A stretch of 64,000 nt of DNA, taken from Mobula hypostoma. Lineage: Eukaryota. The stretch is from positions 64,792,001-64,856,000 of the forward strand of contig NC_086097.1 in NCBI RefSeq assembly GCF_963921235.1. The letters run 5' to 3'. The notes under the pieces were generated by a model. It searched no databases, was not told where the DNA came from, and worked only from the letters and a program-made list of their open reading frames with translations. Numbering within the stretch: the first letter of the stretch is position 1; every line of letters begins with the position of its first letter. Made by a program: the position numbers and the translations under genes. Below, in pieces: positions 5,800 to 62,366 of the stretch.

Positions 5800-8700
5800 A
5801 GTCGTGAGTTAGATAGCAGGGAAAAATTCAGGCATAAAAGAGAGACACTGCCTGGGGGCAGCAAGAGTGGTCGTGCCTCTGGCAGGGAGTCTGGCCCTAT
5901 GACTCAGAAGGGTAGGGAAAGGAAGAAGGCAGCAGTACCCTATAGTTAGGGGGTCAGACAGGTGATTCTGTGGACGCAGGAAAGAAACATGGATGATAGA
6001 TTACCTCCCAGGTGCCAGGTCCAGGATGTCTCTGATCGCATCCACGATATCCTGAAGTGGAAAGTTGAACAGCTAGAGGTCATGGTAGATATTGGTATCA
6101 ACGACAAAGGTAGGAAAAGGAAGGAGGTCCTGAAAACAGACTACAGGGAGTTAGGAAGGAAGTTGAGAAGCAGGACCTCAAAGGTAGTAATCTTGGGATT
6201 GCTGCCTGTGCCACACAACAATGAGCATAGGAATAGAGTGAGGTGGAGGATAAATGTGTGGCTGAAGGATTAGAGCAGGACGCAGGGATTCAGATTTCTG
6301 GATCATTGGGACCTCTTTTGGGACAACTGTGACCTGTACAAAAAGGATGGGTTGCACTTGAATCTGGGAGGGACCAATATCCTGGTAGGGAGGTTTGCAA
6401 AGGCTATCGGGGAGAGTTTAAATTAGAATTGCTGGGGAGTGGGATCCGAACTGAAGAGACAGAGAAAGGGGGGGTTGGCTCACAAATAGAGAAAGCAAGT
6501 AGACAGTGCGAGAGGGAGGATAGGCAGCTGATAGAGAAGGGATACGCTCAAACCGATGGTTTGAGATGTGTCTATTTTAATGCAAGGAGTATTATGAACA
6601 AAGCGGATGAGCTGAGAGCATGGATCAGTACTTGGAGCTATGATGTTGTAGCCATTACAGAGACTTGGATGGCTCAGGGGCAGGAATGGTTACTTCGAGT
6701 GCCAGGTTTTAGATGTTTCAGGAAGGACAGGGAGGGAGGCAAAAGAGGTGGGGGCATGGCACTGCTGATCAGAGATAATGTCATGGCTTCAGAAAAGGAG
6801 GAAGTCATGGAGGGATTGTCTACTGAGTCTTTGTGGGTGGATATTAGAAACAGGAAGGGGTCAATAACTCTACTGGGTGTTTTTTTATAGACCACCCAAT
6901 AGTAACAGGGACATCGAGGAGCAGATAGGGATACAGATTCTGGAAAGGTGTAAAAATAACAGGGTTGTCGTGGTGGCAGATATTAATTTCCCAAATATTG
7001 ATTGGCATCTTCCTGGAGCAAGGGGTTTAGATGGGGTGGAGTTTGTAAGGTGTGTTCAGGAAGGCTTTCCGACACAATATGTAGACAGGCCAACAAGAGG
7101 AGAAGCTGTACTTGATCTCGTATTGGGAAATGAACCTGGTTAGGTGCCAGGTCTCACAGTGGGCGAGCATTTTGAAGATAATGATCACAATTCTATCTCC
7201 TTTACCATAGCATTGGATGGGGATAGGAACAGACAAGTTAGAAAAGCGTTTAATTGGGGTAAAGGGAAATATGAAGCTATCAGGCAGGAACTTGGAAGTA
7301 TAAATTGGGTCAGATGTTCTCACGGAAACGTGTGGCAGAAATGTGGCAAATGTTCAGGGAATATTTGTGTGGTGTTCTGCATAGGTATGCTTCAATGAGA
7401 CAGGGAAAGGATGGTAGGGTACAGGAACCGTGATGTACAAAGGCTGTTGAAAATCAAGTCAAGAAGAAAAGAAAAGCTTATGAAAGGTTCAAAAGACTAG
7501 ATAATGATAGAGATCTAGAAGATTATAAGGCTAGCAGGAAGGAGCTTAAGAATGAAATTAGGAGAGCCAGAAGGGGCCATGAGAAGGCCTTTGGCGAGCA
7601 GGATTAAAGAAGAACCCAAGGCATTCTACAAGTATGTGAAGAGCAAGAGGATAAGGTGTGAGAGAATAGGACCAATCAGATATGTCAGTGGAAAAATGTG
7701 TATGGAACCAGAGGAGATAGCAGAGGTACTTAATGAATACTAGCTTCAGTATTCACTACGGAAAAGGATCTTGGTGATTGTAGGGATGACTTACAGTGAG
7801 TTGAAAAGCTTGAGCATATAGGCATTAAGCAAGAGGATGTGCTGGAGCTTTTGGAATGCATCAAGTTGGATAAGTCTCTGGGACCAGATGAGAGGTGCGC
7901 CAAGCTACTGTGGGAGGCGAGGGAGGAGATTGCTGAGCCTCTGGCAATGATCTTTGCATCATCAACGGGGAAGGGAGAGGTTCCGGAGGATTGGAGGATT
8001 GCAGTTGTTGTTCCCTTATTCAAGAAAGGGAGTAGAGATAGCCCAGGAAGTTATAGACCAGTGAGTCTTACTTCAGTGGTTGGTAAGTTGATGGAAAAGA
8101 TCCTGAGAGGCAGGATTTATGAACATTTGGAGAGGCATAATATGATTAGGAAGTCAGCATGGCTTTGTCAAAGGCAGGTCGTGCCTCACAAGCCTGATTG
8201 AATTTTTTGAGGATGTGACTAAACACATTGATGAAGGTAGAGCAGTAGATGTAGTGTATATGGATTTCAGCAAGGCATTTGATAAGGTACCCTATGCAAG
8301 GCTTATTGAGAAAGTACAGAGGCATGGGATCCAAGAGAACCTTGCTTTGTGGATCCAGAATTGGCTTGCCCACAGAAGGCAAAGAGTGGTTGAAGACGGG
8401 TCATATTCTGCATGGAGGTCGGTGACCAGTGGTGTGCCTCAAGGATCTGTTCTGGGACCCCTTCTCTTCGTGATTTTTATAAATGACCTGGATGAGGAAG
8501 TGGAGGGATGAGTTAGTAAATTTGCTGGTGACACAAAGTTTGGGGGTGTTGTGGATAGTGTGGAGGGTTGTCAGAGGTTACAGTGGGACATCGATAGGAT
8601 ACAAAACTGGGCTGAGAAGTGGTAGATGGAGTTCAACCCATATAAGTGTGAAGTGGTTTATTTTGGTAGGTCAAATATGATGGCAGAATATATTATTAAT

Positions 8701-10925: not shown

Positions 10926-11863
10926 ACCACTTTTTGTATGCTTTTCCATTCTTGGGTATTTCAGTAATGTTATAAATATGTTGTTTGATTATGCGGTCTT
11001 TGTTTAAATAATTCATTACAGGTTGTATGTAAAGGTACATGAGTAGCATATATCATTACACCACCACATCATAAGTGCATGCCTCACTAAAGTTAAAAAA
11101 TGAAACTGCACGTTATTCCTCGGTCCATGTTATTCTTTCAAATAGTTTTAGGTTCTGGAATTAGAAAACATGACAGTGGTAATGAGAAAGTTTTAAATGA
11201 ACCCGAGACAACTACCTACCTGTTTAAGCACAGTGAGACATTTGATCTTTTTAAAAATAGCAGAATGTATTCTTGGAAGGGAAGAGACGATCAAGTTAAA
11301 AAAGTCAGAAAACAGATGAAAATCACGGGTTCATAAACAGTGCATACCAGGTGATAATAAATAAATAAATAAGCAGAAATGCCTGGCTATGTCAGAAAGA
11401 TAGACATATTTGATTGCACAAGAAATAACTGGTTAAGGTATACTGAATGAATTCAGCCGTACTTTGTAGCAAATGAAATAGTCACTGCAAAGCAAATGCC
11501 AATTTTGCTGAGTGTAATAGGTGGAAGAGCATGTAGTTTGCTTGGAAGTTTAACTGCTTCAACCAAACCAGCCGAAATGAGCTTTTCTGATATCATGAAA
11601 GTAACGCTGGAACATTTAGAACCAAAACCATTGTTGATTGCACAACACTTTAGGCGTCATAACCAGAATCAAAATGAAGGGGAGTCCATTTCACTGTACG
11701 TGGCTGAATTGAAGACTTTGCCTGAGCATTGTCAGTTCAATGATGGGCTTAATGATGCACTGAGAGATCAACAGGAATTCTGCAGATGCTGGAAATTCAA
11801 GCAACACACATCAAAGTTGCTGGTGAACGCAGCAGGCCAGGCAGCATCTGTAGGAAGAGCTGC

Positions 11864-11899
11864 AGTCGACGTTTCAGGCCGAGACCCTTTGTCAGGACT
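11864..11899 (-). ncRNA. Hammerhead motif, left arm, core mutated (CUGACAA)
   Basis: Reverse complement is agtc-CTGACAA-agggtctcggcct-GAAA-c-GTC-gact. Position 11890 changes the conserved G8 to A. Confidence 0.7.
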
Positions 11900-12195
11900 A
11901 ACTGAAGGAAGAGTGAGTAAGGGATTTGAAAGTTGGAGGGGGAGGGGGAGATCCAAAATGATAGGAGAAGACAGGAGGGGGAGGGATAGAGCCAAGAGCT
12001 GGACAGGTGATTGGCAAAAGGGATACGAGAGGATCATGGGACAGGAGGTCCGGGAAGAAAGACAAGGAGGTGGGGGGGACCTAGAGGATGGGCAAGAGGT
12101 ATATTCGGAGGGACAGAGGGAGAAAAAGGAGAGTGAGAGAAAGAATGTGTGCATAAAAATAAGTAACAGATGGGGTACGAGGGGGAGGTGGGGCC

Positions 12196-12504
12196 TTAGC
12201 GGAAGTTAGAGAAGTCAATGTTCATGCCATCAGGTTGGAGGCTACCCAGATGGAATATAAGGTGTTGTTCCTCCAACCTGAGTGTGGCTTCATCTTTACA
12301 GTAGAGGAGGCCGTGGATAAACATGTCAGAATGGGATGTGGAATTAAAATGTGTGGCCACTGGGAGATCCTGCTTTCTCTGGCGGATAGAGCGTAGATGT
12401 TCAGCAAAGCGGTCTCCCAGTCTGCGTCGGGTCTCGCCAATATATAAAAGGCCACATCGGGAGCACCGGACGCAGTATATCACCCCAGTCAACTCAAAGG
12501 TGAA
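12196..12504 (-). pseudogene. Penelope GIY-YIG endonuclease domain, left arm
   Basis: Mirror copy VIYCVRCSRCGLLYIGETRRRL... with a 6-nt in-frame deletion relative to the right arm. Confidence 0.9.
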
Positions 12505-12510
12505 CAACAC

Positions 12511-12825
12511 TTCACCTGTGAGTCGACTGGGGTGATATACTGCGTCCGGTGCTCCGGATGTGGCCTTTTATATATTGGCGAGACCCGACGCAGACTGGGA
12601 GACCGCTTTGCTGAACATCTACGCTCTATCCGCCAGAGAAAGCAGGATCTCCCAGTGGCCACACATTTTAATGCCACATCCCATTCCCATTCTGACATGT
12701 CTATCCACGGCCTCCTCTACTGTAAAGATGAAGCCACACTCAGGTTGGAGGAACAACACCTTATATTCCGTCTGGGTAGCCTCCAACCTGATGGCATGAA
12801 CATCGACTTCTCTAACTTCCACTAA
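12511..12825 (+). pseudogene. Penelope GIY-YIG endonuclease domain (5'-truncated), right arm
   Basis: FTCESTGVIYCVRCSGCGLLYIGETRRRLGDRFAEHLRSI...VATHFN...LGSLQPDGMN shows the IY-CxxC-YIGET pattern of PLE endonucleases. The frame is open to the stop at 12825. Confidence 0.9.
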
Positions 12826-13120
12826 GGCCCCACCTCCCCCTCGTACCCCATCTGTTACTTATTTTTATGCACACATTCTTTCTCTCACTCTCCTTTTTCT
12901 CCCTCTGTCCCTCTGAATATACCTCTTGCCCATCCTCTGGGTTCCCCCCCACCCCTGTCTTTCTTCCCGGACCTCCTGTCCCATGATCCTCTCGTATCCC
13001 TTTTGCCAATCACCTGTCCAGCTCTTGGCTCTATCCCTCCCCCTCCTGTCTTCTCCTATCATTTTGGATCTACCCCTCCCCCTCCAACTTTCAAATCCCT
13101 TACTCACTCTTCCTTCAGTT

Positions 13121-13156
13121 AGTCCTGACGAAGGGTCTCGGCCTGAAACGTCGACT
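13121..13156 (+). ncRNA. Minimal type I hammerhead ribozyme motif (intact core)
   Basis: agtc-CTGACGA-agggtctcggcct-GAAA-c-GTC-gact: stem I agtc/gact, CUGANGA box, stem II agg/cct, GAAA box, vestigial stem III and a GUC cleavage triplet. This is the architecture known from Penelope-like element hammerheads. Confidence 0.8.
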
Positions 13157-16100
13157 GCACCTCTTCCTACAGATGCTGCCTGGCCTGCTGCGTTCACCAG
13201 CAACTTTGATGAGTGTTCACTGAGAGATCATTTAGTTTGTGGAATCTTACAAGAAAGCATTCAAAAATGGCTCCTAACTGAAGCACAACTCACCTTTAAA
13301 AGAGCAGTTGAAGTCATTGTATCAACGGAAACAGCAGAGAAAGACACAATTGAGTTGCAGTCAGGAATGAAAGAGAGCTTGAACAAAACTACAAATGTTG
13401 TATATCCAAACAGAAACCGGCCTGGCCAAACAAAATGTGTTACTGTCGGGCCTCACATACAGTATATCAGACCATTGTAGGTTTAATGGTGAGCTTGCAG
13501 AAAATGCAATAAAGTAGGACACATACAAAAAACATGTCAGGCAGACAAAAATAAATGGATTGCACAGGGAAGAGAAAAAGACAAAAAGTCAAGTTGCAGT
13601 TGCAAAAATAGAACTAATCTTCATGCTGTTGATGAAAAAATCTGATGAGAATGACACAGGACTGAATAGCCTTGAGATTTAAAATGTGAAAGCTAACAAC
13701 AGATGAGCAAAATGGCTTGCCCCAGAAGTGAACAGCAAATTAATTAAAATACAATTGGACACTGGCTCAGCTGCTTCAGTTATTCAACATAATGAATTTG
13801 AATGGCATTTCAAAGATACTGAACTAAAACCTGCCGATATCCAACTAAGAACTTGCTGTGTACTGGAGAAAAACTAACTGTTGTGGGAACGACAGTTGTA
13901 ACAGTGAAATACAATTCCAACAAGCCAAATTGGGTGTTTATGTGGTAAATACTAAAGGACCAGCATTATGGGGCTGTGATTGGCTGAGACAACTACAACT
14001 TGATTTAAGATCCATCCACTATTTGCATACCACATGCCCTGCAAAGGAGTCAACTGAAAGTGAATTAAGAAAGGTACTAGATAATACCACAGTAGTGTTC
14101 AAGGATATCATTGGTAAACTTGAACTTATTGAAGGTAAAACAGTGTTAAATGAAAATGCCACACCCAAGTTTTACAAAGCCCACCTGGTTCCTTATACAA
14201 TCTGTAATAAAGCAGCTGGTGAGCTAGATCACATGGAGCTGAAGGCATTCTTTCCGATGTTGAGTGGAGCCCATGGGCCATGCCAGTGGTCCCAGTAGCT
14301 AAGAAGAATGGGTCTGTCAGCATCTGTGGTAATTTTAAGGTTACCATCAACCCAGTACGAGGACACCTTCTCAAACCTTTCTGGAGGAATCACTTCAGCA
14401 AAATAGACTTAGCTGAAGCCTACCTACAAATGAAGGTGGAAGAAGATGCTGCAGAGAAAAGTTTTTTGTATTTCTCACAATAAGTACTCACAAATAGCTT
14501 TATCACTATAATAGGCTTATTTTTGGAATAGCATCTACATCTGCACTCTGGCAGAAAGCTATAAACCAGGTGCTGCAAGGCTGCCCAGGCACTCAGTTCT
14601 ACCTGGATGGCACAATTGTTACTAGTAAGGATGACAAGGAACATCTCCAAAATCTCAAAACTGTGTTGAAAAGATTAGGAGATTATGGGTTTGGAGCACA
14701 ACCCGACAAATGTGAATTCTTTAAAACAAACATTACTCACTGTGGTCACACCATTGACACACAAGCATTACACAAGTGTGTTGAGAAAAGTTAAATAGTA
14801 GTGTATACCCCAAGGCCAAAGGATGTGTTACAGTTGCAATCCTTTTTAGGATTTGTCAATTGCTATAACAGCTTCCTGCCAAACCTGGCTACTGTGCTTC
14901 ACCCCTTGAACTCATTACTACAGGGAAGAGATGGCAATAGACAAAAAAGTGTGAGGTGGCTTTCCAAGAGGTAAAGGAAATGGTGACATCAGACACTGTA
15001 CTCTCACATTATGATCCATATCGTCCAGTGAAGCTTGCCTGAGATGCCTCGCTTATGGAATAGATGTCATGTCACGTGTTCTGAGTGTGGAAGTATTCCA
15101 TAGCTATTGCATCTCGTTCCCTTACTACTGCAGAGAAAAATTACACACAAATTGACAGAGAGGATTTGTGCCTGGTTTGATGTAAGAAATGTTTCAATCA
15201 GTACTTGTATGGGACAGAGTTTACCCTCATTACTGATCATCATTCAATATTGTCCATTTTCAATCCACAGAAGGGTGTTCCACTATCAGCAGCAGAACAA
15301 ATGCAGAGAGGGGCTTGCTTCCTTGGGAGGACATAAGTAGAAGATTGAATTCAAGAAGACAACTAATCATGGAAATGCTGATGGATTGTCCCATTTACCC
15401 TTGGAAACGGAAATACCTGAAAAAATTACAAAAGAGGGCATTCCTCTTGATGTATTCTCCCTAATGCAAATTGAAAGTCTCCCTATTATGGCAGAGATGA
15501 TCCAAGGGAAACCAGAAAAGATCCCACTCTGTCTCTGGTCTAAATGGCAGCCCAAAATGGCTTGAATGTGCAGCTGAAATCCCAGTTGCTCCATTTTTAC
15601 CAGTGCCGGGATGAACTTGCCCTTGACAGAGGTTGTCTTATGTGGGGATTGACAGTTGTTGCACATTCCAAGCTGAGAGCTAAAGTGCTGGAGGAGCTGC
15701 ATGCCTGTCATCTAGGCTTGGTCAAAATGAAAGCATTGGCTCAAATCATTGCCTGATGGCCTGCGTAGATCAACAGATCGAAGAGCTTGCCATGTTCTGT
15801 TCACCATGCCAACATGTCCAGAAGATGCCAAGAGCAGCACTTCTCCATCCCTGGCAGAGGATTCATGTGGATTTTGCCGATACAGGCACATATTTCTTGC
15901 TAGTAGTGGATGCAGCTACAACATGGCCAAAAGTGTTCACAATAGCCTCCACTACAGCCTGGCACACTGTTGATGGGTTGAGAAGCCTTCTCTCAAGGAC
16001 TGGTGTCCCAGAACACTTAGTCAGTGACAGTGGACCACAGTCTGTTGCGATCATTCCTGAACAGTTTCAGTCATTCCTGAAAATGAATGGAATAAGACAT

Positions 16101-16488
16101 ATTACATCTGTACTGTTTCACCTAGCTACAAAGAGCTTGGTGGAAAGGTTTGTCCAGAGTACTGCGAGCAATGTCAGCAGAATACACTACGCTGACACTG
16201 AATCAGAAGCTTGCCAATTTCCTCCTTGCAGATCACAATGCAACACAGTCCACAACCAACAATTCACCAGCTATGCTGCTCCTGAGTTGTCCCTTGCACT
16301 CACGCATGGATCTCCTCAAACCCAGAATCTCAGAAGGTGTATACAGGACAAACAGCTAAGAAAAATTGAGGGCTCCTCAAATAAGGAGGTTCGATGCTTC
16401 ACTCCTGGACAAGATGTCCTGGCGAGGGACTACAGAAGTGATCAAAAGTAGGTATTTGGAAAGATTAAGGACAGAACTGGGCCACTCT

Positions 16489-21344: not shown

Positions 21345-21555
21345 ATCAGGTGGGAGTAATCCCTGCAGAAAGTGGAGAGTGGGTGGAGGGGGGGTAAAGA
21401 TATGTCTGGTGGAATGATCCCATTGAATATGGCAAAAGTTGCGGAAAATGATGTGCTGGATGTGGAGGCTCAAGGGATGATAAGTGAGGACAAGGGGAAC
21501 TCTATCCCTGTTAAGGCAGTGGGAAGATGGCATGATCACAGATGTCCAGGAAATG
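21345..21555 (-). mobile_element. Penelope-like RT C-terminal/linker fragment
   Basis: NRDRVPLVLTYHP...IQHIIFRNFCHIQWD...TRHIF is the PLVLTYHP motif found upstream of the GIY-YIG domain in PLEs. Confidence 0.7.
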
Positions 21556-32790: not shown

Positions 32791-33339
32791 GCATTCAACC
32801 ATCCAGAGCTTCTCATTCTCAGAGTCGGGTAACAATATAGAGTAAGGGCACACCTAGACTTGGGCTTCTTAAGTGATTGGCAGGGATGTTTAAAAAGAGT
32901 TCAATATTTTTTTTAAATACTGTACAAAATTGTAACACCTTAAAATATGCTCACCAGTGGGAGGTGGTGCTTTAGCACTGCTGGCCCACCACCTCGAGGG
33001 AGTCTTGACCATAAGCGGGCTGAAACTCCTGAAGACAGGTGGCAGATCAACTGATGATCCCACTGGTGATAGCACAGGACAGTTAACATCTTAGTCCACG
33101 TGTATTTTTAACTCTGAGTAAATAATTAACACTAAAACAAATAATAAAATTTAATGTTCATGATTTACTCAACAAAAAACAAACTTGCCTTTCTCTTCTT
33201 AATCTTTGGGTCAGGAATCCCCATTCGGATAAATGGTTTCGCTGATTCTGGTTGGCATATGACAGGAGAGGCAGATTCAGCAGTGTGGTGCAGCTCTAGC
33301 ACAGTCGGACTTTGTATTGCATGCCATACAGAGTGAATT

Positions 33340-33945
33340 TAGGGGTAAGAGGGGAGCCGGAATGGGAAATGGAAAAAGAAAGGATTGGAGGGCGGAAATT
33401 ACCAGGTTAGAGAAAGTTTGAGTCCTGACAAGGGATTCCAGCCCGAAACGTTAACTGATCATTTCCATGGATGCTGCCCGACCTGTTGAGTTCCTCCAGC
33501 GTGTTGTGAGTGTTACTTAGAGAAAGTGATGTTCATACCATCAGGTTGGAGGCTTAGCCAATTGCTTTTACCCCTTCCCATTTACCCTTTCTCTTCACCT
33601 CACCTGCCTTTCACCTCCCTCTGTTGGCCCACTTCCTTCCCTTTCTCCCGTGGTCCACTCTTCTCTCCTATCAGAATCCTTCTTCAGCCCTTTACCTTTT
33701 CCACCTAACACCTCCCAGCTTCTCACTTCCTACCCCTTCCCTGAGCCACCTATCTTCCCCCTCAGCTGGCTTCACCTATTACCTTTCTTGTTTGTACTCC
33801 TTCCCTTCCCCCACCTTCTTATTCTGGCTTGTTCCGGCTTCTTTTCCAGTCTTGATGAAGGGTCTCAGCCTGAAATGTTGACCCTTTATCCCTTTCCATA
33901 GATGTTGCCTGAACTGCTGAGCTTCTCCAGTATTTTGTGTACATG
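33340..33945. mobile_element. Older head-to-head Penelope 3' fragments with a nested 99-bp hammerhead unit
   Basis: Minus arm about 33340-33556 (gatgttcataccatcaggttggaggct, as at 12218-12245). Plus arm about 33557-33945 ends in agtcttgatgaagggtctcagcctgaaatgttgac...tattttgtgt. Confidence 0.75.
33418..33516 (+). mobile_element. 99-bp hammerhead-plus-tail insertion with 11-bp TSD
   Basis: ttagagaaagt occurs at 33407-33417 and 33517-33527. The insert begins ttg-agtc-CTGACAA-gggattccagccc-GAAA-c-GTT-aact. Confidence 0.8.
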
Positions 33946-45808: not shown

Positions 45809-47436
45809 CAGTGGTGCTAGAAAGTTTGTGAATCCCGTAGAATTTCTCTATTTCTGCATAAATATGACCTAAAATGTGATCAGATCTTCACACAAGTCCT
45901 AAAACTAGATCAAGAGAACCCAATTAAATAATAAGATAAAATACTATGTTGTTCATTTACTTATTGAGAAAAATGATCCAATATTACATGTATTTGTTGC
46001 AAAATGTATGTGAACCTCTGGGGTAATGCCTTCCACGAAAGCTATTTGCAGTCAGACGTCCCAATCAATGAGATGAGATTGGAGGCGTGGGTTGCAGAGG
46101 TGCCCTGCCCTATTAAAAAAGTCACACAGTCAGCCTGCTGTTCTCAAGAAAGATCTCTTTATGTGCACCATGCCTCAACTAAAACAACTTTCAGAGCACC
46201 TTAGAAGAAGAATTGTAGAGATGCATGAAGCTGGAAAAAGCTACAAAAGCATTTCTAAAGACCCGAGGGTTCATCAGTCCACAGTAAGAGAAATTGACTA
46301 CAAATGGAGGAAATTTAGTACTGTTGCTACTTTTCCTAGGAGTGGGCATCCTGCAAAGATTACACCAAGAGTACAATGTGCAATGCTGAAGGAGGTGAAA
46401 GAGAACCCAAGGGTACCAACAAAAGACTTGCAGAAATCTCTAGAACTTGAAATTTTGAGATTCTCTAGAAATCTCTGAAGTCTCTATTCATGTGTCCACT
46501 ATAAGAAAAACACTGAACAAGAATGATAAGAATGATATTCATGGAAGGACACCACAGAGGAAACCACTGCTCTTCAAAAAAAAATGTTGCTGCAAGTTTG
46601 CAAAAGACCACCTGGATGTTCAACAATGCTCTGGGACAATATTCTGAGGAGACATGAGACAAAAGTTGAACCTTTTGGCAGAAATTCACATCATTATGTT
46701 TGGAAGAAAAAGGGCACTGCACACCTACACCAAAACTTCATCCCAACTGTGAAGCATGGAGGAAGTAGCATCATGGTTTGGGGCTACTTTGCCGCCTCGG
46801 GGCCTGGACAGCTTGCAATCATTAAGGGAGCAATGAATTCAAAATCGTATCAAGACATTTTACAGGAGAATATCAGGGTGGCAGTTTGTCAGCTGAAGCT
46901 TAATAGAAGTTGGATAATGCAACAAGACAATGATCTGAAAGACAAGAGTAAATCAACAACAGAATGGTTTAAAAAGAAGAAAATTTTTGTTTTGGAATGG
47001 CAGAGTTAAAGAACTAACCTTAATCATAAAGAAATGTTATGGAAGGACCTGAAGCAAACAGTTCATGCAAGGAAGCCCACCAACATCCAAGAGTTGAAGC
47101 AGTTTTTTGAGGAAGGATGGCCTAAAATTCCTCTAAGCTGATGTGCAGGTCTGATCAACAGTTACTGGAAATGTTTGGTTGAAGTTATTGCTCTTCAAGA
47201 GGGTCACACCAGTTACTGAAAGCAAAGGTTCTCAACTTCTTCCAATAAATACATGTAATATTGGATCATTTTTCTCAATTAACAAATGAACAAGTATAAT
47301 GTTTTGTGTTATTTATTTAATGGGGTTCTCTTTATCTAGTTTTAGGACTTGTGTGAAGATCTGATCACAGTTTAGATCATATTTATGCAGAAATACAGAA
47401 AATACTACAGGTTTCACAAACTTTCTAGCACAACTG
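45809..47436 (+). mobile_element. Full-length Tc1 transposon (1628 bp) with long TIRs
   Basis: TIRs of about 210 bp beginning cagtggtgctagaaagtttgtgaa and ending ttcacaaactttctagcacaactg, with TA duplicated on both sides. Confidence 0.95.
46170..47219 (+). pseudogene. Tc1 DD34E-type transposase, frameshifted
   Basis: MPQLKQLSEHLRRRIVEMHEAGKSYKSISK...PRSGHPAKI, ETKVEPFG, TVKHGGSSIMVWG and QQDND; stops and frameshifts are present. Confidence 0.9.
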
Positions 47437-52124: not shown

Positions 52125-52397
52125 ATAAACCCAAGAGATTCCACAGATGCTGGAAATCCAGAGCAACACACTCAAATTGCAGAAGGAACTCAGCAGGTCA
52201 AGCAGCATCTATAGAGGGGAATAAGGAGTCGACGCTTCGGGCCAAGACTGTCTATCAGGACTCGCTTCATCAGGAATTGCCCCAAATCATTGAGTATTTA
52301 TTCCCTGTCATAGATGCTGACTGACTTGCTGAATTCTTCCAATATTTTGTGTGTGTTGTTCAAGATTTCCATCATCTGCAGATTCTCTTGTGTTTAG
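52125..52397. mobile_element. About 270-bp foldback of two opposed Penelope tails
   Basis: The left end aaacccaagagattccacagatgctggaaatc pairs with the right end gatttccatcatctgcagattctcttgtgttt. Degraded hammerhead motifs meet at the centre, about 52262. Confidence 0.8.
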
Positions 52398-57804: not shown

Positions 57805-60800
57805 TGTTAGGTCTGCTAATGTAGACTCCTCAGAGATTCCACCCAACTAACCAGAATCAGCTACCACTTATTTCCAACTCATCACCTGCAGCCTATTTAA
57901 GCCCAGTTCTCATCCAAAGTCCTTGATCACCCATCGAACTAGCCAGCCAGCAAGCCTCCTAGCCTTCGGTTATCTTGTTGCCTTGTTGTGTTAAATAGTC
58001 GATCTCTCTTATTTTGTGTCCCCTCGTAGCTTGTTATTTTGGAGTTTATTATTAAAGTGATTGGTCACTGCTCAATCATCTCCATTGCTCTGCATTTGGG
58101 TCAAGCCTCATCTACATTCCCTGGCAGGGTGGATAAACCAGCAGCTGACCCAGCAGTGGTTGCTCACATGAAGGATGTGGTCTGCCTTAACCAGTGCATG
58201 GTCCAGAAGCAGCAGGAAACCTTTGACCGTCACTCACCACCCTCAACCAACTCCTCTTCTCATTGCTGCATACCAATGGCGGTCAACCTCCTCCCTTGTA
58301 GCCTCGAGTTGACGGATCCCAACGCAATGCCACAACTTCCTGTTCTGATGTGTCCCTGCGTTTTGAGCTGCAGCTATCTCTGTATTCTATGGACTGAAGC
58401 AAGAGTGCCTTCAACATCTTCCTCTTCATTGGGCAAGTAATGAATTGGGCTGCCACTAACTGTTAGCCCATTACAATCACGGCCTCTCGGAGCATTTGAA
58501 AGATGAGCTCTCTACCCACAAGTTGCCCACCAGCCTTGAAAGCCTCCTCACCCTGGCCTTCCATGTTGATAAGCATCTTATGGAACGACCCTCCAGATCA
58601 CCAACCAGAACCCCAGTTTCATTCCTGGAATCATTTCCGGCTGCAGTAACCTCATCAGCAATGCCTCCAGAACCCACGCAGTTAAGGAGAGCTCCATTAA
58701 CTCACCCCTACCCCACCCCAAAGAGCGTGAGAATTGGTGGAGAAACAATTTCTGCGCTTACTGTGGAGCAGTCAATCACCAATGCATCAAATGCCCACTG
58801 CATCCAGGAAGATGGCACCACCAGGTAGAGATGAGAAGCCTACTATCTAGTAAACTCTCCCCAGCCCCTCGTTTCAACACCATAACCCAACTCGCTCTTC
58901 CCCTCCTTCTCCACACCCTGAAGGTTCTGCACGCCCAGGAGGCTCTGGTGAAATCTGGCGCAGATCTAGCACCTTCCTGAACCAGATTCTGTGTGTGCAG
59001 CTTGGGCTTCCTACCATCTCACACCTTCTGCATCATAGCCACTGACTGGTGTCCCTTGGGGTCTGGGATGGTCAGAGCATGCACACGGCCTGTGCACAAG
59101 AGCAACACAGAGCACTGTGAGTCCATCCCATTCTGCCTTATCGACTCACCCAACATTCCTCACATCTTGGGTTACCCCAGAATCTCCACTCACAAACTTC
59201 ACTTCACCTGATTATCCAGTTCACTACTGAGTTGGGGACCCACCTGCCTGTAACCTTAGGTGAATTCACCCCGTAAATTCGTGAGATGGAGGAAGCCCTT
59301 GACCTCACCAAACTCCGACAGGAACAACACAATTTGCCCGTTGCCTTCAGTAAAAGGGGAAGCCAGCACCCTGACACCTCACAGACCACATGACTGTGCA
59401 AATGACCTTCTCCCAAGGTTGTCTGTTCTCCCTCTCCCCTCCTGAGACCCAAGCCTTGGATGACTACATGCCAAAGCACTACAGAACGGCTTCATTCAAC
59501 TATCCCATTCCCCAATCGGTGCAAGATTCTTCATTGTCAAAAAGAAATATGGGCTCTCCATTCCTGCATCGACTACTGTGGCCTCAACAATATCACCATT
59601 AAAGACCGCTACCTTCTCTCCTAGAAGAATAGCACATTCATAACACTCCACGGGGCCCAGATCTTCACCAGACTGGATCTACGATGTGCATACAACCTGA
59701 TCTGCATCCACCAGGGAATGAGTGAAAGATAACATTCGTAATACCCACTCCATTTCAGACTTTCCAGCAGTTTAGCCATTTTCCAAGCCTTTCTTCATGA
59801 GATCTTCCGAGGCATGCTACAGAGGTATGTGCTCATTTACGCAACAGCATCCTCAGTTTCTCCAAGAACTCCCAGGACCACATCTACCGTGTTCATTCAG
59901 TCCTTCAGTGTTTCCTCAAAACCAATTGTTCTGCAAGTTAGTAAAACTCCAATTGCACATCCCAGTCATTTTCTTCCTGGGTTATGTCCTTTCATGCCAA
60001 GGCATTACCATGGATTTAGAGAAAGTGCATGCCATTGTTGAATGACCCTGACTGCACTCCCTCAAACTGTTACAGTGCTTCCTCACCTTCTCCAACTTCT
60101 AAACTGCCTTTTCATCAGGAACTACAGCTAAATCACTGCTCCTCTCACCTCCCTCCACAAAATCCTTCCTCACAGATAAGCTGCTCTGCTGCTGCTGGCC
60201 ACATTTAGGAGGAGCTCCGGAGACGCTTCACCACCACTCCCATTCTCCACCTTCTGAACCTCTTTGCACCTTTTGTGGTAGAGGTGGACACATTTGATGT
60301 AGACACCAGGGCCTTCCTCTCCCAGCGAGGACCAGACAGGGAGATACATCTTTGTGCCTTCAACTCGTGCAACCTCAGCTCTGCACATTGCCATGATGGA
60401 GTAGGAGACTGGGAGTTACTCGCCATTAAATGGGCCTTGGAGGAATGGAGATATTGTCTGATGGGGAACACTGAGCCCTTCCTGATCTGGACTGACCACC
60501 AGGACCACCTATCCATTCAGCATTCCAGCCAATTCAACCCACATCAGGCTCGCTGAGCCCTCTTCATCAAGCAATTCAGCTGCACCACCTCTGCACAACC
60601 CAGCTCCAAGAACCCTAAGGTAGACACCCTGTCACAACAGTTTGACCTGGTGGAAATAGAGATCAAATCTCAGCCATTCATTCCATCCTCCCGGATTCTC
60701 ACCCTAATAGTCTGGGACCTTGGGAACCTGACCGACCAGGCCCTATAGCACGAGTCTGCTTCAGCCGATGCACATGGCAGTGACCACGTGTTCTGAGGCA

Positions 60801-62366
60801 TTCCAGTAGGCCCACACCCCACCCTTCTCCAGCCATTCACGTGCATGATTGACTCGGGATTTTCAGCAGTGCCGGTTCTGGTGGCACACCACGATCACAG
60901 ATGTACGTCAGTTTGTCACTGCCTGCCCTCAGTGTGCTCAGTTCCTTCAATCAATAGTTAATTCCTCCAACCAGTGGCCTTCTGGACTCCTGCAGTCCCT
61001 GCCAAGCCCTCGACACCATTGGTCCCGCATCACCAAGAATTTCTTCATGGATTTGCCACCTTCCAATAGGGCCATAATGATCATGAAAGTGGTGGACCGG
61101 TTCTCCAAAGTGGCCCACTTCATTGCCCTCCCCAAACTTCCGTCAGCATCTGAGAGGGTGGACCTGGTTCTCCAACACGGAGTTCATCTCCATGGATATT
61201 GTTTTGGACCGGAGTCCGCAGTTCCTTTCCCACTTCTGGCAAGCCTTCTGCTCCCTGCTCCACACCTCGGTGAGTTTGTTCTCTGACTATCATCCGCAGA
61301 CCAATGGTCAGTCAGAAAGAGCCAGTCAACAAGTGGAGAAGTTTCTGCAAAACTTCACTGCCTCTAACCTTTCCACATGGACGAAGCAGCTGCCCTGAGC
61401 CGAGCTGTCCCACAACCTGCACACCTCCTCTGCCACAGTATGTCATTCTTCGGAGTTCTTCATGGCTACTAACCTTCATTGTTCCCCGCAGAGGACCCAA
61501 TGGAAGAGGTACCATCCACCAGGTCCCTGTTTGCTGCTGCTGAAATGCTTGGAAGAGGGCACCGAGAGCTATCCTATCTGTCAACCACCCCTGCTGCTGC
61601 CAGGCCAACCACCTGCAGCGCCCACCTGGGAACCGTGTCTGGCTGTTCACCTGAGATCTGCCCCTGCACACCGACTCCTGCAACCTCTCACCTGGCTTTG
61701 TAGATCCCTTTAAGATTATCCATCACGTCAGTCCAGTCACTTCCTGTCTCCAGCTATCCCCACCCTTCAGGATCACGCCTACCTTCCAGGTGTCCTACCT
61801 CAAGCCCATTGCCACCTCCAGAACCCGGGATGGTAGGAAGTAGTTCAGTGTACACAGTTCATTGGTTGATGGATCCACATTGTTGTGGACAGGGTATGCA
61901 GAACCTGGTCAACTGGGTAGGGTACAGCCTGGACAAGAGGTCATGAGTGCTGTCCACTTCTACCTTGGATCCATCGTTCATTGAGGAATCCACTAGACCC
62001 ATCTGGATCATCCTGGGCTGTCACATGCCAGCCATAGGCGGTGGGTTCCTGTCAGGCTTGCACAGACAGGCATCTCCCAGTCTCCACCCAGCTAACAGGA
62101 GGCCCCTGCCACTCATTTCCAACTCGTCACCTGCAGCCTATTTAGACCCAGCACTCATCCACAACCTTGTTCACCCATTTAACCAGCCAGCCTCAACTAA
62201 TTGCTCCTAGCCTTCAGTTACCTTGTTGCCTTGTCATATTAAATATCTTTTCTCTCTTGTTTTGTGGCCCTCGCTTGTTATTTTGCAGTATATTAAAGTT
62301 ATTGCTCACCAGTAGATCGTCCTTGCTGCTCTGCGTTTAGGTCAAGCCTCTATATTTCCTGATACA
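57805..62366 (+). mobile_element. Gypsy chromovirus-like (sushi-type) LTR retrotransposon, decayed
   Basis: LTRs at 57805-58126 and 62050-62366. Gag (IKDEL-like, LESLLTLA, MPPEPTQL, CAYCG), RT (PHRPHDCA, IDY, LDLRCAYNLI), RNase H (ELLAIKWALEEWRY, WTDH), integrase (VVDRFSKVAHFI, YHPQTNGQSERA) and a chromodomain-like end near 61850-61995. Probable 5-bp TSD ccaaa/cctat. Confidence 0.92.

What the first reader, a model, noticed from the sequence alone, without database searches (positions are those of the whole stretch)
11758..13230. 1.45 kb Penelope palindrome inserted as a single unit with a 13-bp TSD
Seen: two arms of about 710-730 bp, each a GIY-YIG domain plus 3' tail, diverge from a 6-nt spacer (ggtgaa-caacac-ttcacc, 12499-12516). 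The arms differ only by scattered substitutions and small indels. cactgagagatca flanks both ends and the Gypsy gag frame is restored on removal, so this is one integration event with two outward-facing 3' ends and no RT. Known: PLEs often insert with inverted 5'-truncated copies. Inference: the cDNA folded back at a short internal inverted repeat at the start of the endonuclease domain and was copied through. A palindrome this long with a 6-nt spacer is normally unstable, and transcription would give a dsRNA hairpin of about 700 bp.
Basis: partly seen in the sequence, partly recalled or inferred. Interest (0 to 1): 0.8.

Follow-up and report, generated by a model that had tools for sequence, protein, structure and literature searches.

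The report
Head-to-head Penelope insertion in a ray
This 1.45-kb mirror-image stretch is a real but ordinary dead insertion of a very abundant Penelope-type jumping gene, likely in a ray: two shortened copies sit head to head inside one 13-base target duplication, and they were likely started from the two cut DNA ends and joined at a tiny hairpin built into the element.

Summary
Observation confirmed. A 1,447-bp insert lies between exact 13-bp repeats. The arms are 734 and 707 bp, with 18 substitutions in 701 columns, and each carries a GIY-YIG end and a minimal hammerhead motif. Inverted truncated copy, one-sided tail, TSD and junction palindrome are the published layout of endonuclease-bearing Penelope-like elements (PMC3846280, PMC8557442). 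siRNA from such inverted copies is also published (PMC3681739). The scan noted this layout many times before, in this genome and others (unchecked notes). The junction is not the clean fold-back product: two native G are replaced by one A. The one-sided tail fits priming from both target nicks better than fold-back. Best model: twin priming joined at the hairpin (0.5); fold-back 0.3. CpG-biased arm divergence argues against an artefact and for long persistence. Recurrence of this centre is untested. Already known; interest 0.2.

The parts
11758..11770 (+). Left copy of the 13-bp target-site duplication
   Evidence: Exact repeat, only 2 occurrences in the window
11771..11802 (-). 32-nt one-sided 'tail', present on the left arm only
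   Evidence: Unaligned overhang in the arm alignment; family contigs continue past the right arm's end with the first letters of this sequence (loose ends behind 13217)
11771..12504 (-). Left arm: 5'-truncated Penelope-like copy (GIY-YIG domain, 3' UTR, hammerhead motif, tail)
11864..11899 (-). Minimal type I hammerhead-like motif, left arm; core has a CpG-type change (CTGACAA for CTGACGA), likely inactive
   Evidence: Motif scan; not an Rfam hit; activity untested
12196..12504 (-). GIY-YIG coding end, left arm (102 aa, 2-codon deletion, no start of its own before the catalytic motifs)
   Evidence: Pfam PF01541 25.2 bits; translation
12505..12510 (+). 6-nt spacer: the extra 5' bases of the right copy, lying in the loop of a native 7-bp hairpin of the family
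   Evidence: Loose-end consensus before 12505 and 12507 in 4 runs; relative P0001 reads QSFQVRQHFTCES
12511..13217 (+). Right arm: 5'-truncated Penelope-like copy without tail
12511..12825 (+). GIY-YIG coding end, right arm (104 aa; first Met at residue 63, behind the GIY-YIG motifs)
   Evidence: Pfam PF01541 24.1 bits; 92% identical to a Mobula hypostoma protein
13121..13156 (+). Minimal type I hammerhead-like motif, right arm (CTGACGA...GAAA core, no proper helix III)
   Evidence: Motif scan; type described in PMC6155905 (passages); not an Rfam hit; activity untested
13218..13230 (+). Right copy of the 13-bp target-site duplication
11451..16451 (+). Decayed Ty3/Gypsy-like LTR retroelement that hosts the insertion (outer limits not mapped)
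   Evidence: Integrase rve E=3.6e-7 (just under the cut-off), protease E=0.065, no Pfam hit for the gag piece; zinc-knuckle pattern and many stops in translation; multi-copy in 4 runs

Best explanation
The insert is one integration of an endonuclease-bearing Penelope-like retroelement, likely of the Neptune type, in which both 3' ends of a 13-nt staggered cut likely primed reverse transcription on the same source RNA, and the two cDNAs were likely joined through the element's own 7-bp inverted repeat. Shown: one TSD, two outward-facing 3' ends, a 32-nt tail on one arm, a rare allele shared by both arms, inner ends 6 nt apart inside the loop of a native hairpin. Inferred: the top-strand end started at the far end of the tail and the bottom-strand end 32 nt further in; both cDNAs reached the start of the GIY-YIG domain; there TCACCTG on one cDNA paired with CAGGTGA on the other; imperfect fill-in left one A in place of the native GG. 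The product is dead (no RT, no promoter or start seen) and has since decayed arm by arm.
For: Geometry: each arm's 3' end abuts a TSD copy, so on each strand the target's 3' end runs directly into minus-strand element sequence. The tail is 32 nt and on one arm. In vitro, an anole PLE cleaves and extends both target strands and starts RT at two sites that bound the tail (PMC11167929, parts 1-2 of 4 read). One source: at 12628 both arms read A where 99% of summed depth in X1 and 98-99% in the other 3 runs reads G; both also share minority alleles in X1 at 12826, 12924 and 13032. Native repeat: contigs with loose ends before 12505 give a consensus ending CAGGTGAGG (77 in X1, 69 in X5, 16 in X14) and before 12507 CAGGTGAGGCG (43, 54, 22, 40 in the 4 runs). 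Only 0.7% of the other 62.6 kb of the window lie in the loop of a perfect stem of 7 bp or more with a 3-12 nt loop, and the 707-bp arm has none. Later decay in place: 7 of 47 CpG columns differ against 11 of 654 others (p=7e-5, inflated because a column counts as CpG if either arm has it).
Against: One locus cannot separate pairing between two cDNAs from pairing within one: both use the same 7 bp. The junction has no exact microhomology (GG replaced by A), so one extra slip must be assumed. The hairpin coincidence is a single after-the-fact test, and the native stem was read by eye, not folded. The two-start result comes from a Poseidon element, not this family, and I could not show that 13217 is a preferred start in this family. 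2 of the 7 arm differences with listed family frequencies (12804, 12955) are about 50:50 in the family, which leaves room for two sister RNAs. A shared rare allele could also come from arm-to-arm conversion. Arkhipova et al. 2013 read junction palindromes as self-priming.
Confidence: 0.5

Rival explanations
1. Fold-back: one cDNA, primed at the left nick, folds on the native 7-bp repeat and copies itself. The copy is cut or stops 32 nt short of the first start and is joined to the other target end. The centre is then altered from GG to A.
For: The native repeat is real and sits at the centre. Arms share rare alleles, as a self-copy must. The inner ends are only 6 nt apart. Self-priming is the published reading of junction palindromes (PMC3846280, section 11). 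Repeats of 5-9 bp with 3-12 bp spacers can drive snap-back palindromes in repair-deficient yeast (PMC7999016, passage).
Against: A clean fold-back keeps the native GG; the locus does not. The copy must stop exactly one tail length (32 nt) before the first start and be joined to a target end without homology. Two RT starts and two-strand priming are shown in vitro for a PLE.
Confidence: 0.3
2. Both target ends prime, both cDNAs run off an RNA whose 5' end lay in this loop (broken or cleaved there), and the ends are joined bluntly. Pairing in the repeat is not used.
For: The junction has zero exact microhomology, and both inner ends (12505 and the equivalent of 12511) fall in the single-stranded loop, where an RNA would be easiest to cut. 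It explains the GG-to-A difference with no extra step.
Against: No RNA end data (no run on record as RNA; contigs cannot show ends). It needs the loop to be cut or a 0.7% coincidence.
Confidence: 0.13
3. One ordinary copy inserted, and the mirror arm arose later by a repair- or replication-driven inverted duplication, or by a second insertion.
For: Short inverted repeats seed palindromic duplications in general.
Against: The duplication stops at the element's end, includes no flank, and both arms lie inside one exact TSD. The left arm holds 32 nt of element sequence that the right arm lacks, while the right copy holds 6 nt that the left lacks.
Confidence: 0.04
4. Assembly or amplification chimera.
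Against: A laboratory fold-back gives identical arms and no TSD. Here the arms differ at 18 sites with CpG bias, derived changes lie on both arms, and an exact 13-bp TSD closes the unit.
Confidence: 0.03

Closest known systems
Insertion unit of endonuclease-bearing Penelope-like elements, e.g. Pen2a_Av of Adineta vaga (PMC3846280: passages and section 11 read) and Fig. 2 of Craig et al. 2021 (PMC8557442: passages and legend read)
   Same: 5'-truncated inverted copy adjoining head to head, one TSD round the unit, a 30-40 bp tail on one end (31 bp in Pen2a_Av, 32 here), palindrome at the inverted junction, hammerhead motif near the 3' end.
   Different: Both copies are cut to about the same point, so the whole insert is a near-symmetric 700-bp-arm palindrome with no RT. 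TSD is 13 bp (8-10 bp in the rotifer cases). The arms include coding sequence, not only the pLTR.
Neptune / Nematis clades of PLEs (PMC8557442, passages)
   Same: The nearest proteins (Mobula, Hypanus; 92% and 85%) have a C-terminal GIY-YIG preceded by a CX4CxxC linker motif.
   Different: The linker and RT are not in this insert; clade placement by RT phylogeny was not done.
Poseidon PAc of Anolis carolinensis, in vitro (PMC11167929, parts 1-2 of 4 read)
   Same: Tail bounded by two RT start sites; both target strands cut and extended. This supplies the chemistry of the best model.
   Different: Different clade; the parts read show no joining of two cDNAs and no head-to-head products.
Inverted-repeat Penelope copies in transgenic Drosophila melanogaster (PMC3681739, passages)
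   Same: Long inverted repeats made by Penelope rearrangement, proposed to give dsRNA; siRNAs mapped to the inverted regions.
   Different: No expression evidence at this locus; arms here are old and diverged.
L1 twin priming (recalled; one search gave only a search listing)
   Same: Both target nicks prime on element RNA and the products are joined by microhomology.
   Different: In L1 the second primer anneals internally, so the inverted part is a non-overlapping upstream piece. Here both arms are copies of the same 3' part.

Membership tests
EN+ Penelope-like element insertion | [quoted passage not shown] | tested here: met
   Pfam PF01541 above cut-off in 2 of 2 arms; CxxC between the motifs and downstream His residues read by eye in the translation
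EN+ Penelope-like element insertion | PLE-type RT in the same ORF upstream of the endonuclease | tested here: inconclusive
   Absent from the insert by truncation; the nearest relative P0001 has a YIDD motif upstream in the same protein; RT clade not tested
EN+ Penelope-like element insertion | Adjoining inverted 5'-truncated copy, head to head | tested here: met
   feature described in PMC8557442
EN+ Penelope-like element insertion | 30-40 bp tail on one end only | tested here: met
   32 nt at 11771-11802
EN+ Penelope-like element insertion | Short target-site duplication round the whole unit | tested here: met
   13 bp exact; empty state seen in other copies of the host family
EN+ Penelope-like element insertion | Minimal hammerhead motif in the terminal repeat | tested here: inconclusive
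   Core motif found in 2 of 2 arms by a recalled pattern; no Rfam hammerhead hit at E<=5; simple folding did not give the hammerhead fold; cleavage untested
Neptune/Nematis clade | CX2-5CxxC linker between RT and EN | tested here: inconclusive
   Lost from the insert; present in P0001 and P0002, 92% and 85% identical over the EN
Neptune/Nematis clade | Placement by RT phylogeny | not tested
   No reference RT set fetched
L1-type twin-priming inversion | Inverted part is a non-overlapping upstream piece of the same RNA (recalled) | tested here: not met
   Both arms cover the same 3' region
Non-LTR retrozyme | At least two consecutive tandem units with hammerhead motifs (10.64898/2026.07.22.740005, passages) | tested here: not met
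   Two units, inverted not tandem, each with coding sequence
MITE or TIR DNA transposon | Terminal inverted repeats reaching both ends, not made of retroelement coding sequence | tested here: not met
   Ends differ by 32 nt; arms are retroelement 3' ends

The most novel reading that the evidence does not exclude
Penelope-like elements of rays integrate by two-ended priming, and small hairpins inside the element's own RNA set where the two cDNAs meet. Symmetric centres would then cluster at a few native inverted repeats, such as this one at the start of the endonuclease domain. That would give a sequence rule for second-strand completion in this class and explain how it seeds vertebrate genomes with long-lived kilobase palindromes.
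Probability: 0.25. Interest if true: 0.55.

Novelty: already known. Interest (0 to 1): 0.2.

Why it matters
As a locus it is a dead, ordinary insertion. Its value is as one data point on an open question that the literature itself names (PMC8557442, passages): how PLEs make tandem and inverted structures. The junction lies in a native hairpin and the tail is one-sided, which makes fold-back versus two-ended priming testable on the many copies in ray genomes. It also shows that a 700-bp-arm palindrome with a 6-nt spacer can last in a vertebrate genome. Non-CpG divergence of about 0.8% per arm would be on the order of 10^7 generations at a borrowed shark rate (7e-10 per generation, PMC10587355); this is an order of magnitude only, and it concerns a survivor.

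Tried and rejected
Centre test in public contigs: 5,545 contigs were laid on 12465-12550 in 4 runs; none of the 32 listed pieces (of 5,553; the longest are kept) reaches left of 12504, so no bridging contig was seen, not even for this locus in X1. Contigs drop rare variants, so this shows neither absence of the locus nor non-recurrence; at most it is a weak hint against a very high-copy shared centre; none of the 15 listed joints (of 737) changes strand, but the table was saturated. Expression: no RNA holder listed; this is no evidence either way. DNA pattern scans for family copies: viral contigs 0 hits; 11 metagenome and 7 genome hits match only 18-21 bases and are chance, so no stored locus holds the native junction and the native hairpin was not folded. 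Rfam: 3 hits at E<=5, all far under gathering scores, two of them microRNA models matching the hairpin shape; rejected. Host gene: 12 of 44 ORFs scanned (44 of 70 listed, plus 5 pieces) hit Pfam; ten are mobile-element domains and two are ALKBH8_N, which I recall as a LINE-tail match. No host exon was recognised, but short exons would be missed. Earlier-findings search by sequence and one by words gave nothing. Literature: 8 searches. They listed no paper devoted to head-to-head PLE palindromes in sharks or rays or to twin priming in PLEs, but the library lacks most subscription papers, including the original Penelope structure papers, and I saw no supplements.
Full report
Observation. The feature is as described. 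An exact 13-mer lies at 11758-11770 and 13218-13230 and nowhere else in the window. Between the copies are 1,447 bp: a minus-strand arm (11771-12504), the 6-nt spacer CAACAC, and a plus-strand arm (12511-13217). The arms differ at 18 of 701 aligned columns, plus a 6-bp and a 1-bp indel. Each encodes the last 102-104 residues of a GIY-YIG endonuclease (Pfam above cut-off). In the right arm the first Met lies behind the catalytic motifs, and no RT is present. The insert interrupts a decayed Ty3/Gypsy-like element (integrase E=3.6e-7). Its gag-like frame is in register on both sides and is broken by stops further on. In 4 of 4 public runs, other copies of that host family read from the left-flank sequence straight into the 13-mer, so the TSD is a true duplication of target.

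The left arm has 32 extra bases at its outer end (11771-11802). Each arm also has a minimal hammerhead-type motif (13121-13156 plus; 11899-11864 minus, with a CpG-type change in the core). I found the motif with a recalled pattern; Rfam does not report it, and activity is untested.

Identity. The nearest proteins are from rays: Mobula hypostoma 92% and Hypanus sabinus 85% over the domain. They carry a YIDD motif or a variant and a CX4CxxC linker upstream, which marks the Neptune/Nematis type (PMC8557442, passages). The family is very abundant: 196,435 contigs of run X1 were laid on one arm plus flank, with summed depth about 100-fold higher over the arm than over the flank (this is not a copy number).

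Real or artefact. Differences are enriched at CpG (7 of 47 columns against 11 of 654; p=7e-5, somewhat inflated by how CpG columns were defined). Derived changes lie on both arms. At 5 of the 7 differing sites with listed family frequencies, the left arm has the family's majority base (85-99.7% in X1); the other 2 are about 50:50 (40 of 114 rows were shown, 22 of them in the arm). The left arm has its own changes, such as a 2-codon deletion relative to the right arm and to P0001. A laboratory chimera would give identical arms and no TSD. Run X1 holds two flank pieces with 0 differences (119 and 184 bp), but it may be the source sample. No contig bridging the centre was listed, which proves nothing. 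I put an artefact at 0.03.

The centre. In the intact family the sequence before the spacer ends in CAGGTGAGG (loose-end consensus, 77, 69 and 16 contigs in three runs; the CG variant in all four), matching QVRQHF in P0001. So the element has a native stem, CAGGTGA with TCACCTG, and a 9-nt loop; a weaker extension (CAGTC with GACTG) is visible by eye and was not folded. Both inner ends of the insert lie in that loop. Only 0.7% of the rest of the window lies in loops of comparable stems, and the retained arm has none. But the locus reads (C)AGGTGAA-CAACAC where the native reads CAGGTGAGG-CAACAC. A clean fold-back, or a clean annealing, would keep GG. One slip or later change is needed under either model; blunt joining needs none.

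One source. At 12628 both arms read A where 98-99% of summed depth in the 4 runs reads G, and they share three further minority alleles in X1. The arms therefore came from one template or one source locus, or were homogenised later.

Mechanism. On each strand the target's 3' end runs directly into minus-strand element sequence, which is what two target-primed starts from a 13-nt staggered cut would leave. An anole PLE cuts and extends both strands in vitro and starts RT at two sites that bound the tail (PMC11167929, parts 1-2 of 4). That gives a direct reason for a tail on one arm. Under fold-back the copied strand must stop one tail length early and be joined without homology. I therefore rank: two-ended priming joined at the native repeat 0.5; fold-back 0.3; two-ended priming with blunt joining at an RNA end in the loop 0.13; later duplication 0.04; artefact 0.03. 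My recorded reading before I looked at the scan's notes gave self-priming 55%. The shift rests on the tail geometry and the in vitro paper, and was encouraged by unchecked notes from this genome.

Comparison with what is known. The layout is published: inverted 5'-truncated copy, 30-40 bp one-sided tail, TSD (PMC8557442; PMC3846280). Junction palindromes were read there as self-priming, and head-to-head is called the most frequent arrangement. siRNAs matching inverted Penelope regions are reported in Drosophila (PMC3681739). The scan's earlier notes list similar units of 0.15-5.5 kb in sharks and rays, several in this genome. If right, their varied lengths mean centres are not fixed at this one site; I could not check them.

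Stability and RNA. Long arms, high identity and a short spacer are risk factors for breakage (PMC7999016, passages). Yet non-CpG divergence is 11 of 654, about 0.8% per arm. At the epaulette shark rate (7e-10 per generation, CI 1.4-14.1e-10; PMC10587355, passages) that is about 10^7 generations (hand calculation, borrowed rate, conversion ignored). A read-through transcript is predicted to pair 1,398 of 1,447 bases, but there is no evidence on transcription, and no host gene was recognised in the window.

Verdict. A real, single, dead insertion with the known PLE layout. The one useful detail is a junction inside a native hairpin. Already known; interest 0.2. The bolder reading, that native hairpins set the meeting point of twin-primed cDNAs across the family, has probability about 0.25 and would deserve about 0.55.

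Noticed in passing
window 33330-33945: Older, related Penelope-like pieces in alternating orientation, with two hammerhead-like ends (about 33421-33512 and 33850-33945) and endonuclease-end fragments on the minus strand. No TSD was identified by eye.
   Followed up: partly
window 52138-52262: 3' end of a related Penelope-like element with part of the tail, 77% identical to the left arm's end.
   Followed up: no
window 21375-21554: Minus-strand fragment 62% identical to residues 148-207 of P0001, the region between RT and linker of a Penelope-like ORF.
   Followed up: no
window 45843-47401: 89-bp inverted repeats (94%) 1,381 bp apart around an ORF with a Sleeping Beauty transposase HTH hit (E=8e-14): a Tc1-like DNA transposon.
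   Followed up: partly
window 5950-8511: LINE-like element with a weak GDSL esterase hit followed by apurinic endonuclease and RT hits; CR1-type by recall.
   Followed up: no
window 12465-12550 (run X1 and run X5): Two single-contig joints near the native hairpin: in X1 from 12540 back to 12507 with 10 native upstream letters between, possibly a partial tandem starting in the hairpin's 5' arm; in X5 from 12522 to 12467 (table 5c). One contig each, anecdotal.
   Followed up: no
window 60209-61286: RNase H and integrase zinc-finger hits of a second LTR retroelement.
   Followed up: no
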